DNA of 64,000 nucleotides from a virus. The notes beneath the pieces were generated by a model, which was not told the DNA's origin, ran no database searches, and saw only the letters and a list, made by a program, of their open reading frames with translations. Position 1 is the first letter of the stretch, and each line of letters starts with the position of its first letter. A program made the position numbers and the translations under genes. Below are positions 32,194 through 49,909 of this stretch, piece by piece. Where the stretch lies: IMG/VR virus record IMGVR_UViG_3300028027_000001. The stretch is one strand, 5' to 3'.

Positions 32194-32410
32194 AACTTTT
32201 AATTTTTAAATTTATAACTGGAATATACGAAACGTTTTTTATATTACTTCGACCTCTATTACATTTGTATTATCTAAATACCAATTTAATTCCTCCTCTT
32301 TAATTAATTTAGTAATTAAACTGTTTCCTTCTTTGTAAATAACTTCTAACATAATATCATTTTTTAATTATGCTTGAATATACGAAATCAAGTTTGTATA
32401 TTTGTGTCCT

Positions 32411-33080
32411 GAGACCAAGAAAGCCTATATGAAACATATAAGCGAATAATTTAAAGCAGGCGATTATCATTTACACTGAATACAATGCCTTTTAATATTT
32501 GAATCTATTATTTAATTTATCAATCATTACTACTTGGTCCCTCATCTCCCTCCTCCCTGGCGTCTCCATAAGTCATAGGTTACCTTATGGCCTCCCTGTT
32601 GCGGCGATTGGTTTCGGTCGTTCGTTAATGTTTGGAGTAAATTAATTTTAATTCCCCGTTCGTCTCGTTTGACTATAATCGTGGATAGGGCCTCGGTTTA
32701 ATATTCAACTGTTCCTGCCTGTCTCCGCTACTTCCGGTATGTTTTTCAATGGGGCAATTAATTAAATTACTGGGATAGTGGAGAGAATGGATTAACCGAT
32801 TGTCGCACCTTAAGCCGTAGCATCTGTTCTGTTTAATTAATTCAAAGAAAAACGCACCTTGGTGCGATTATACATATGTGTGTTTTCCGTCTTTTATACG
32901 TCTTCATGAAAACCTTTTCACCCTCCCTTACGGGAGGGATCAAAGGGAAATTAACGGTTATGAAGCGTTGTTTCGTTATTAATCACCATAATCGGTGATA
33001 ATCATATCGTCTGCGTTGATCGGCGCTTATATTTCGCTTAAATCAACACTGTGATGTAGCCATAATTGCGATAAATGGCA
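32411..33080. ncRNA. candidate large structured ncRNA (about 670 nt)
   Basis: ORF-free, raised GC, many nested inverted repeats; directly downstream of two tRNA-like elements. Confidence 0.55.
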
Positions 33081-33086
33081 ATTCTG

Positions 33087-33210
33087 TTGTTAGGACAGGA
33101 TTCGAACCTGCTTAAATCCCCATGACAGGGACGATGGTGTGATTACACTCACTCATCTTAGGGATGTGAACCCATTCCATCTGTGTTTTACCTATTACAC
33201 CCACCTAACA
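33087..33210 (-). ncRNA. tRNA-like element A (124 nt; 39-nt expanded anticodon loop, long variable arm)
   Basis: TGTTAGG/CCTAACA acceptor, GTG/CAC D-stem with GG loop, GATGG/CCATC stem, GCAGG-TTCGAAT-CCTGT T-arm, A73. Confidence 0.75.
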
Positions 33211-33220
33211 TTTTATTTTG

Positions 33221-33321
33221 TTATTAGGACAGGATTCGAACCTGCAATCCGATGGGCACCTCTATTGGCTTTAAGTGCTCCGAACACACCACCGCAGTTA
33301 TCCAATTACGTTCACCTAACA
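33221..33321 (-). ncRNA. tRNA-like element B (101 nt; non-canonical middle)
   Basis: TGTTAGG/CCTAATA acceptor, TAATTGGATAA D-loop, GCAGG-TTCGAAT-CCTGT T-arm, A73. Confidence 0.7.
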
Positions 33322-33403
33322 TTTTATTTTTAAAGTAAAACCATTTCGTTTTACTTGCTTTTATACCTGGAATATACGAAAGTTCCGTCGGTAATTTGCG
33401 TCC

Positions 33404-33790
33404 TTATCGGAGACGTTTGAAGTATGAGTAATCATTTCTATCTCCATCTATTTCCACTTCCACCGGGTATTGGTGTTGTGGGGTATATTCTATAAATTTA
33501 CCTATTTCCCATATCTTTCCATCATCACTTACCATTATTTCCTCACCTAATTCCGGTAGTTCTATCGGGCGTTCCTGTGAGAAACCGTTGAGAGTATATT
33601 CGGTTAATGAAAGGGTAGGTTGGGATATTTGTTGGTATCTTCCATCGGAGGTGTAATATCTTGCTCCAACATTCGCATCAAATACTATTTCTATTGGGTA
33701 TATTCCTTCAGTTTCTATCTCCGTTATTTTACCCCATCCATATATTACACAATATACTTTATCTCCTACTTTAAATGTTGTTTCTTTCAT
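33404..33790 (-). CDS. early hypothetical protein
   Basis: FKVGDKVY...GWGKI...YPI...YTSDGR; promoter plus leader. Confidence 0.75.
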   Translation of the reverse strand: MKETTFKVGDKVYCVIYGWGKITEIETEGIYPIEIVFDANVGARYYTSDGRYQQISQPTLSLTEYTLNGFSQERPIELPELGEEIMVSDDGKIWEIGKFIEYTPQHQYPVEVEIDGDRNDYSYFKRLR

Positions 33791-33830: not shown

Positions 33831-34045
33831 TTACTCAGGTGTCCTCCAAGTAATTATTTACTTACTTTACTTACTCTCAGGTAATTACCTCAGGTACATT
33901 TTACTTACTCCTTACTTACTCTTATGTGAGAAATGCGGTGAGGGACGTGGAAAATATATATTTTTGGAAGTGGGGGGAAGGGCGGGGAGGCGCGGGAGAT
34001 GTGGGTTAGACCCCAACTCCCCTCTGCCCCCCTATGTCCTACACA
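33831..34045. repeat. iteron-like TTACTTACT/CTCAGGT repeats followed by a G-tract/C-tract palindromic block; candidate origin or terminus
   Basis: ttacttact x4 and ctcaggt x3 in 33831-33923; GGGGGGAAGGGCGGGGAGGCGCGGG then CCCCAACTCCCCTCTGCCCCCC. Confidence 0.55.
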
Positions 34046-49801: not shown

Positions 49802-49909
49802 TAGTTAGGACAGGATTCGAACCTGTGCAGGGTGTCATCCCCCGGAGCATCTAAAGTTTTGACGTACTTATTATTGAGCTCCTGCATTACCACTTTCTGC
49901 CATCTAACT
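49802..49909 (-). ncRNA. tRNA-like element C (108 nt; 29-nt anticodon loop, long variable arm)
   Basis: AGTTAGA/CCTAACT acceptor, GCA/TGC D-stem, GGAGC/GCTCC stem, GGGG/CCCT variable arm, ACAGG-TTCGAAT-CCTGT T-arm, A73. Confidence 0.75.

What the first reader, a model, noticed from the sequence alone, without database searches (positions are those of the whole stretch)
32411..33080. Roughly 670-nt ORF-free, highly base-paired region behind the tRNA-like pair: candidate large ncRNA
Seen: GC is raised over the flanks and there are nested stems: gagaccaag/cttggtc (32411/32533), ccataag/cttatgg, gcggcgattggtt/aaccgattgtcgc (32601/32794), agtaa..aattcccc/ggggcaatt..ttact, cgcac/gtgcg, cttcat/atgaag enclosing ccctccc-ttac-gggaggg, atcacc/ggtgat, gttgat/atcaac and gccat/atggc. 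Strand is ambiguous: the upstream promoter and a GTAA (GNRA) tetraloop favour minus, while three G-U pairs in the 13-bp stem favour plus. Established: GOLLD and ROOL are large phage ncRNAs found beside tRNAs. Inference: an analogous, possibly new, large RNA.
Basis: partly seen in the sequence, partly recalled or inferred. Interest (0 to 1): 0.72.

Follow-up and report, generated by a model that had tools for sequence, protein, structure and literature searches.

The report
New folded RNA of lake phages
The gene-free stretch holds a previously uncatalogued folded non-coding RNA, kept with compensating base-pair changes in about 16 related uncultured freshwater and estuary phages, whose job is still unknown.

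Summary
It is not one uniformly conserved 670-nt RNA, though. It has four parts on the minus (gene-sense) strand:
(i) A block of four hairpins (33079..32900), shared only with close relatives.
(ii) A conserved core (32879..32628).
(iii) An insertion of about 200 nt found only in this genome.
(iv) The family's last hairpin, P7 (32443..32423).

I collected 16 distinct homologues from IMG/VR and metagenome contigs. A covariance model of 235 positions and 53 pairs hits the window at 74.5 bits (E 2e-20). On a structure-blind alignment 79% of cells pair, against 33-41% when the partners are slid. 27 pairs change on both sides. G-U pairs outnumber A-C 67 to 21, which settles the strand as minus.

Folding energy alone gives no support for the core (z about -0.4). 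Rfam 15, including GOLLD, ROOL, 6S, RNase P, tmRNA and group I models, gives no match.

The tRNA-like neighbours occur in only two sublineages. Elsewhere the RNA follows a conserved C-rich/iteron module and, in some members, a promoter-like sequence of its own.

Verdict: a new phage structured-RNA family of moderate size, function unknown, most likely an early trans-acting RNA.

The parts
33358..33380 (-). Early-class phage promoter (TTCGTATATTCC) that heads the non-coding unit.
   Evidence: One of 34 exact TCGTATATT sites, all on the minus strand, with consensus AGGAC-N20-TTCGTATATT.
33087..33321 (-). Two tRNA-like elements with enlarged anticodon-arm regions, directly upstream of the RNA.
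   Evidence: ARAGORN and the Rfam tRNA model find nothing here. The second element folds with a 7-bp acceptor stem, a D arm, a T arm GGUUCGAAUCC and a large insert. The pair is nearly identical in L001.
32900..33079 (-). Hairpin block A. H0 33079..33059, H1 33049..33013, H2 32999..32982, H3 32966..32900 (CCCUCCC-GUAA-GGGAGGG inside CUUCAU/AUGAAG).
   Evidence: MFE z = -3.8, with 0 of 200 shuffles as good. 89-90% identical in L001 and L017, with only H3 present in L033. H0 is deleted in L001. There is too little variation to test covariation.
32628..32879 (-). Conserved core of the RNA family: 5' CAUAUGUAUAA, P1 (32866..32853), P2 (32843..32832 with 32766..32756), P3 domain, P4-P5 hairpin (32726..32683) with the 17-nt loop AACAGUUGAAUAUUAAA (32713..32697), and P6 (32673..32662).
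   Evidence: Covariance model R1 hits at 74.5 bits, E 2e-20. No frame stays open across members.
32444..32661 (-). Insertion specific to this genome, between P6 and P7. It holds an AT-rich arm that can pair with the 3' strand of P2, the hairpin CCAUAAG/CUUAUGG (32590..32566) and a G-rich run (32561..32533).
   Evidence: No similarity to any of 45 loci or to the rest of the window. Relatives have a linker of about 25 nt here. MFE is no better than shuffles.
32423..32443 (-). P7, the family's last hairpin (GCUUAUAUG-UUU-CAUAUAGGC). Here it is followed by UUUCUU and was also flagged as terminator-like.
   Evidence: It aligns with AGCUUGCAA..UUGCAGGCU of the relatives. The outer G-C, C-G, U-G, U-A pairs are kept and the inner pairs are replaced in a compensating way. 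Terminator-like site.
32358..32386 (-). Next early promoter, which bounds the unit.
   Evidence: In every relative the next TCGTATATT lies 32-53 nt after the RNA model.

Best explanation
The stretch encodes, on the minus strand, one member of an uncatalogued family of phage structured non-coding RNAs.

Shown:
- A core of about 235 nt with seven helices (P1-P7) is kept by compensating changes in 16 distinct sequences from uncultured large myovirus-type phages.
- The one complete genome held (166 kb) has one copy.
- It is never coding.
- It is always in gene orientation and is always followed within about 50 nt by the next early promoter.

In this genome the RNA is enlarged. It has a 180-nt hairpin block in front and a 200-nt insertion before P7. 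It has lost the promoter-like sequence that sits before the RNA in other members.

Inferred:
- It is made early, as the distal part of the transcript that starts at 33380 and runs through the two tRNA-like elements.
- tRNA-processing nucleases at those elements would set its 5' end near 33086, and P7 plus its U-rich tail would set the 3' end near 32415. That gives about 670 nt.
- It acts in trans as a stable folded RNA. Its conserved unpaired segments (5' AUAUGUAUAA, AAUGGAAAC or CAGAAC, the 17-nt loop, and the A-rich linkers) would dock a phage or host protein during early infection.

Odds: structured RNA element 0.85; independent trans-acting RNA rather than a cis or DNA-level element about 0.55; the partner is unknown.
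For: Homologues:
- L001 (about 90% identical) and L017 (80% over 33111..32646).
- L019, L020 and L021 from IMG/VR.
- 17 metagenome contigs.

Model: R1 finds full-length matches in all of them at 110-264 bits, and in the window at 74.5 bits, E 2e-20.

Covariation on the model-fitted alignment A7:
- 87% of cells pair, against 33-41% with partners slid.
- 32 of 53 pairs change on both sides, against 22.6 +/- 2.3 in shuffles (0 of 500 as high).
- Covariation score 0.38, against 0.16 in shuffles.

Covariation on the structure-blind MAFFT alignment A3:
- 78.7% of cells pair, against 33-41% slid.
- 27 pairs change on both sides, against 8-13 slid.
- Score 0.26, against 0.04-0.11.

Other support for the structure:
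- RNAalifold on its own recovers P1, P5, P6 and P7 on the blind alignment, and also long-range P2 on A7.
- 7 of the 40 most covarying column pairs are structure pairs, where 0.12 would be expected.

Strand: 67 G-U cells against 21 A-C.

Non-coding.

Independent unit:
- Downstream genes differ between loci while the RNA is kept.
- A promoter-like TTGTCA-17-TATACT (TTCGTATACT) lies directly upstream in L025 (alignments).

P7 is present in the window.
Against: - There is no expression data.
- MFE of the core is no better than shuffles, in the window (z -0.4) and in ten relatives (mean -0.9 sense, -1.1 antisense).
- The structure was drawn by eye from the same sequences it is tested on. P3 pairs in only 49% of cells on the blind alignment, and P4 is irregular.
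- All members were found with exact motifs from the 3' domain. The invariance of the 17-nt loop is therefore partly ascertainment, and the family is small and narrow.
- Covariation cannot tell RNA from a strand-specific single-stranded DNA structure.
- The window lacks a recognisable promoter before the core, so its transcription is inferred.
Confidence: 0.7

Rival explanations
1. It is a DNA-level element. The RNA-like region would be part of a replication origin or another single-strand DNA signal, such as a priming site, or a ColE1 RNA II-like structured primer transcript tied to the adjacent conserved C-rich/iteron module.
For: - In nearly all loci with enough upstream sequence, a conserved module TCTAACCC..CCAAAAnTATATA lies 106-243 nt upstream of the RNA. 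G/C hairpins and direct repeats (AAATCGTCAA) follow it. The same module lies about 1.1 kb upstream in the window, at 34010..33950, with a gene and the tRNA-like pair inserted between it and the RNA.
- H1 and H2 of block A are inverted repeats of ATCAAC and ATCACC, which resemble those repeats.
- Covariation would also be kept in a folded single DNA strand.
Against: - The next early promoter and gene start 32-53 nt after the RNA, which leaves no room for an unwinding region.
- GC skew has the same sign on both sides.
- The many conserved G-U pairs, for example U-G in 15 of 17 sequences in P7, are weaker in DNA.
- The element is always in the direction of transcription and, in some members, directly behind a promoter-like site.
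Confidence: 0.13
2. It is a cis-acting piece of early transcription, such as a terminator or insulator, an antiterminator (put-like), or a leader that controls the gene downstream.
For: - Hairpins followed by U-rich tracts lie at 32866..32853 (P1 + UUUUUCUUU) and 32443..32423 (P7 + UUUCUU).
- The unit sits between two early promoters.
Against: - P1 is followed by U runs only in the window and L017.
- At least six different genes follow the RNA in different loci, and each has its own promoter.
- A multi-helix fold of 235 nt with long-range P2 is far more than a terminator needs.
Confidence: 0.1
3. It is mostly non-functional spacer. Decayed tRNA-array or mosaic recombination debris would be conserved only through recent common ancestry, with chance hairpins.
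For: - MFE z-scores for the core and the insertion are ordinary.
- The region is mosaic, with lineage-specific insertions and deletions.
Against: - Flanking genes have diverged beyond DNA detectability, while the core keeps 110-264 bits.
- P1, P2 and P7 each occur in five or more different sequence versions that still pair.
- Slid-partner controls collapse to 33-41% pairing.
- For the 200-nt window-specific insertion alone, this reading remains possible.
Confidence: 0.07

Closest known systems
GOLLD and ROOL RNAs (large ornate RNAs of bacteria and prophages; PMC5737381, PMC12286853)
   Same: Phage-borne structured RNA of unknown function that is not next to a partner gene. In this genome it lies next to tRNA-type genes and is probably co-transcribed with them, the reason Weinberg et al. 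suggested for the tRNA proximity of GOLLD and ROOL.
   Different: No sequence or structure match to either Rfam model. [quoted passage not shown] No pseudoknot was established here. The tRNA link is absent in most members.
[quoted passage not shown]
   Same: A small non-coding RNA of a large myovirus, placed in a tRNA-type transcription unit, so its ends are probably made by tRNA-processing enzymes. Function is unknown.
   Different: Homology could not be tested, because no T4 sequences were compared. This RNA is larger, and in most relatives it stands alone behind promoter-like sequences of its own rather than among tRNAs.
6S RNA (decoy for RNA polymerase that mimics an open promoter)
   Same: Only a lead. 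The 17-nt loop shares 8 nt (UUGAAUAU) with the template strand of this phage's early-promoter core TATATTCAA.
   Different: No Rfam 6S match. There is no long duplex with a central bubble. An 8-nt match in AT-rich sequence is within chance by my estimate (p about 0.02-0.1).
Candidate structured RNAs predicted in bulk from IMG/VR (Fremin, Bhatt and Kyrpides 2023, PMC10690425)
   Same: The same kind of object from the same data source. Five members of this family are IMG/VR contigs.
   Different: That catalogue lists 10,006 unnamed candidates, and its supplementary files are not held. I therefore could not check whether this family is already listed.

Membership tests
GOLLD RNA (Rfam) | A match to the family covariance model | tested here: not met
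   cmscan of all 4227 Rfam 15 families found nothing at the gathering threshold over the window, and nothing for GOLLD at E <= 10 over 32200-33500.
ROOL RNA (Rfam) | [quoted passage not shown] | tested here: not met
   No cmscan match. The conserved core here is 235 nt with 7 helices.
6S RNA, RNase P RNA, tmRNA, group I/II introns, known ribozymes (Rfam) | A match to the family covariance model | tested here: not met
   The only hit is an 11-nt, 5.8-bit piece of the tmRNA 3' end at the T arm of the tRNA-like element (E 8.8). All other hits are chance-level.
tRNA | A cloverleaf recognised by ARAGORN or the Rfam tRNA model | tested here: not met
   No tRNA is called in 32411-33321. The two upstream elements are only tRNA-like.
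T4-type small stable RNAs of tRNA clusters (RNAC/RNAD) | Non-coding RNA co-transcribed with phage tRNA genes | tested here: inconclusive
   The position behind two tRNA-like elements under one early promoter fits. There is no transcript data, and 10 of 15 family members checked show no T-arm motif in the upstream sequence held (up to 2.5 kb; under 900 nt in six of them).
T4-type small stable RNAs of tRNA clusters (RNAC/RNAD) | Sequence or structure homology to T4 RNAC or RNAD | not tested
New family defined here (model R1) | A full-length match to the 235-position, 53-pair model | tested here: met
   Window 32879..32628, minus strand, 74.5 bits, E 2e-20, model positions 1-235. P7 is displaced by an insertion and was found by alignment at 32443..32423.

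The most novel reading that the evidence does not exclude
The RNA and the conserved C-rich/iteron module in front of it form one functional unit of early infection. One version is a structured primer or regulator RNA of a replication origin in a large lytic phage, which would be ColE1 RNA II-like logic in a myovirus. The other is a polymerase decoy whose 17-nt loop imitates the single-stranded early-promoter core and shuts off the early promoter class.
Probability: 0.15. Interest if true: 0.75.

Novelty: new member of a known kind. Interest (0 to 1): 0.5.

Why it matters
Large phages carry many orphan folded RNAs and almost none has a known job. This family is a workable case for four reasons.
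- It is of moderate size.
- It has seven helices, five of them recovered independently by RNAalifold, and the strand is settled.
- The one complete genome held carries a single copy.
- It comes in natural variants, with or without its own promoter, fused to tRNA-like elements, and with or without a 200-nt insertion. These variants show which parts can be dispensed with.

It also shows that the link between large phage RNAs and tRNAs can be a by-product of sharing a transcription unit, and need not point to shared function.

Tried and rejected
- Coding under another genetic code: rejected, because stops are mostly TAA in all frames, and no frame stays open across members.
- Known RNA families: none.
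- DNA similarity to 50,697 deposited phage genomes: none.
- Flanking-protein route: 16 loci carry a homologue of the 128-aa neighbour, but only L001 holds the RNA.
- Nearest cultured relatives by baseplate wedge protein, Flavobacterium phage immuto (45% identity) and Microcystis phage Mel-JY01: neither has the RNA.
- One genome for each of 185,579 bacterial and archaeal species: no exact match to the loop motif.
- A second IMG/VR pattern that leaves the loop free: it found the same five contigs, so no loop variants turned up.
- Antisense targets of the 17-nt loop within the window: none beyond chance.
- Thermodynamic support for the core: absent.
- Supplementary tables of the IMG/VR structured-RNA catalogue: not held.
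- K-turn reading of the P5 internal loop: rejected by inspection.
- The G/C hairpin upstream of the RNA as a sense-strand terminator: rejected, because its T run lies on the opposite strand in L022 and L025.

Full report
**Setting.** All long ORFs of the window lie on the minus strand. Baseplate and head-decoration genes mark a large myovirus-type phage. Its nearest cultured relative by baseplate wedge protein is Flavobacterium phage immuto, at 45% identity. The half of the window that holds the finding is a run of small genes. Each gene is preceded by the same promoter: 34 exact TCGTATATT sites, all on the minus strand, with consensus AGGAC-N20-TTCGTATATT. One such promoter at 33380 is followed by two tRNA-like elements and then by the stretch in question. 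The next promoter is at 32386.

**The observation.**
- The stretch has no ORF above 48 aa.
- Stops, mostly TAA, fill all six frames, so no recoding rescues a frame.
- GC is raised relative to the downstream flank.
- All the listed stems exist.
- The excess of pairing over dinucleotide shuffles is modest for the whole stretch: z = -2.1 on minus and -1.8 on plus.
- By part, the 5' hairpin block is clearly unusual (z = -3.8, 0 of 200 shuffles as good). The middle and the 3' part are not (z = -0.4 and 0.05).

**Known families.** Rfam 15 gives nothing at the gathering threshold. At E <= 10 it gives only chance-level hits in 32200-33500. GOLLD, ROOL, 6S, RNase P, tmRNA, group I and the ribozyme families are therefore excluded at this sensitivity. 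There is no DNA similarity to 50,697 deposited phage genomes.

**Homologues.**
- The 128-aa neighbour gene led to 16 IMG/VR loci. Only one of them, L001, also holds the region, at about 90% identity.
- Exact-motif scans then gave L017, which is 80% identical over 33111..32646.
- They also gave three more distant IMG/VR contigs that share only the 3' core.
- A metagenome scan gave 17 further contigs. In all there are 16 distinct sequences.
- These searches used an exact 21-nt motif from the main loop, so the invariance of that loop is partly ascertainment. A second pattern that leaves the loop free found the same five IMG/VR contigs.
- One genome for each of 185,579 prokaryote species held no exact match to the loop motif.
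- Neither immuto nor Microcystis phage Mel-JY01 has a match. A complete 166-kb genome with terminal repeats has one copy at 66 kb, so the element is not at a genome end.

**Structure.** I derived seven helices from the eleven most alignable sequences and built covariance model R1, with 235 positions and 53 pairs.
- The model matches every family member full-length at 110-264 bits. It matches the window at 32879..32628 on the minus strand at 74.5 bits, E 2e-20. There is no second copy in the window and no match in the 15 loci that share only the neighbour protein.
- On the model-fitted alignment, 87% of cells pair, against 33-41% when the 3' partners are slid by 1-3 columns. 32 of 53 pairs change on both sides, against 22.6 +/- 2.3 in shuffles (0 of 500 as high).
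- That alignment leans towards the model, so I mapped the same pairs onto the structure-blind MAFFT alignment. There 78.7% of cells pair, against 33-41% slid. 27 pairs change on both sides, against 8-13 slid. The covariation score is 0.26, against 0.04-0.11.
- RNAalifold alone recovers P1, P5, P6 and P7 on the blind alignment, and also the long-range P2 on the fitted one.
- In an APC-corrected G-test over 11,902 column pairs, 7 of the top 40 are structure pairs, where 0.12 would be expected.
- P1, P2 and P7 each exist in five or more different sequence versions that still pair.
- P3 is the weakest helix, pairing in 49% of cells on the blind alignment. Its apical part differs between two subfamilies.
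- P4 is irregular, with internal mismatches.
- MFE z-scores of the core are ordinary in the window and in ten relatives. The case therefore rests on covariation, not on stability.

**Strand.** In the conserved pairs, G-U plus U-G make 67 cells and A-C plus C-A make 21. One U-G in P7 is kept in 15 of 17 sequences. The folded strand is therefore the minus strand, the same as all the genes. That stem has no counterpart in any relative, because one arm lies in the variable top of P3 and the other in a window-specific insertion.

**Anatomy in this window (minus strand).**
- Hairpin block H0-H3 lies at 33079..32900. It is shared with L001 and L017, and H3 alone with L033. It varies too little to test.
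- The core runs from 32879 to P6 at 32662 (model match to 32628).
- An insertion of about 200 nt follows, at 32661..32444. It has no similarity to anything collected.
- P7 lies at 32443..32423. The model had skipped it, but it aligns with the relatives' P7: the outer G-C, C-G, U-G, U-A pairs are kept and the inner pairs are swapped. Here a U-rich tail follows it.
About 235 nt are family-wide, 180 nt are clade-specific and 200 nt are private to this genome.
- The insertion's first arm can pair with the 3' strand of P2. It competes with the conserved P2, and I cannot say which forms.

**Context across the family.**
- The next early promoter follows the RNA after 32-53 nt everywhere except in the window, where the model match ends before the insertion and the distance is 242 nt. 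The genes behind that promoter differ between loci. This argues against a leader for one particular gene.
- In L025 and L037 the RNA is directly preceded by TTCGTATACT, close to the early-promoter core TTCGTATATT. L029 has the weaker TTCGTATCTT. The scan tool reads the L025 site as TTGTCA-17-TATACT, 10 of 12.
- Other members have a weaker version, and the tool calls none in L022.
- The window, L001, L017 and L030/L033 lack it. They carry tRNA-like elements upstream instead.
- I therefore infer read-through from the promoter at 33380, with 5' end formation by tRNA-processing enzymes.
- A conserved module TCTAACCC..CCAAAAnTATATA lies 106-243 nt upstream of the RNA in most loci, followed by G/C hairpins and direct repeats. 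It lies about 1.1 kb upstream in the window and L001, where a gene and the tRNA-like pair sit between it and the RNA. This keeps an origin-linked or regulatory reading alive.

**Mechanism.** The best-supported reading is an independent, early, trans-acting folded RNA whose conserved unpaired segments bind a protein. My odds are 0.85 that it is a conserved structured RNA element and about 0.55 that it acts in trans.
- The rivals are a DNA-level or origin-linked element (0.13), a cis-acting transcription element (0.10) and non-functional spacer (0.07, plausible only for the private insertion).
- One weak lead: the loop shares 8 nt with the template strand of the early-promoter core. By my estimate this is within chance, and the loop has no extended antisense target in the window.

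**Comparison with known systems.** It works like the orphan phage RNAs GOLLD and ROOL (PMC5737381, PMC12286853) and like T4 RNAC and RNAD from the T4 tRNA region (PMC3014915). It is not a member of any Rfam family. It may already be among the 10,006 unnamed candidates predicted from IMG/VR (PMC10690425), and I could not check this. Earlier follow-ups of this scan described other new RNAs beside phage tRNA genes, but none resembles this one by sequence.

**Verdict.** This is a real new family of moderate size and narrow spread, with unknown function. Interest 0.5.

Noticed in passing
window 33950-34010 (minus strand); also 106-243 nt upstream of the RNA in L019, L021, L022, L023, L025, L026, L029, L032, L037 and L038: A conserved non-coding module, GTCTAACCC, a C-rich run, then TTCCAAAAnTATATACAAAA. 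G/C-rich hairpins and direct repeats (AAATCGTCAA in L019; TAAGTAAG-type in the window) follow it. It travels with the RNA across the family and may be an origin or a regulatory region.
   Followed up: partly
window, 34 sites from 29322 to 57567 (minus strand): The early promoter class has the consensus AGGAC-N20-TTCGTATATT-caag-TATAAt. A second TATAAT-like box sits about 4 nt after TATATT. Which box is the -10 element is unclear.
   Followed up: partly
window 33404-33790 (minus strand): The 128-aa protein just upstream has a sub-threshold match to the CarD/TRCF RNA-polymerase-interacting domain (PF02559, E 0.006, 17.1 bits against a cutoff of 23). Homologues occur in 16 IMG/VR loci. It may be an early polymerase-binding protein.
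   Followed up: no
window 49802-49909 (minus strand): The Rfam tRNA model matches at 33.8 bits, with a 29-nt insertion in the anticodon loop and a long variable region. ARAGORN calls no tRNA anywhere in the window.
   Followed up: no
L025 3630-3653 and L022 779-805 (opposite strand to the RNA): The G/C hairpin upstream of the RNA is followed by a T run on the opposite strand, which makes it terminator-like for antisense transcription. No such T run exists in the window's H3.
   Followed up: no
window 32697-32713 compared with the promoter cores: The 17-nt loop AACAGUUGAAUAUUAAA contains UUGAAUAU, which is identical to the template strand of early promoters of the TATATTCAA type. By my estimate this is within chance.
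   Followed up: partly
window 32636-32661 compared with 32832-32843: The start of the window-specific insertion (GGAAUUAAAAUUAAUUUACU) resembles the 5' strand of P2 (GAAUUAAUUAAA), and both can pair with 32756-32772. This could be a duplication that creates two exclusive folds.
   Followed up: no
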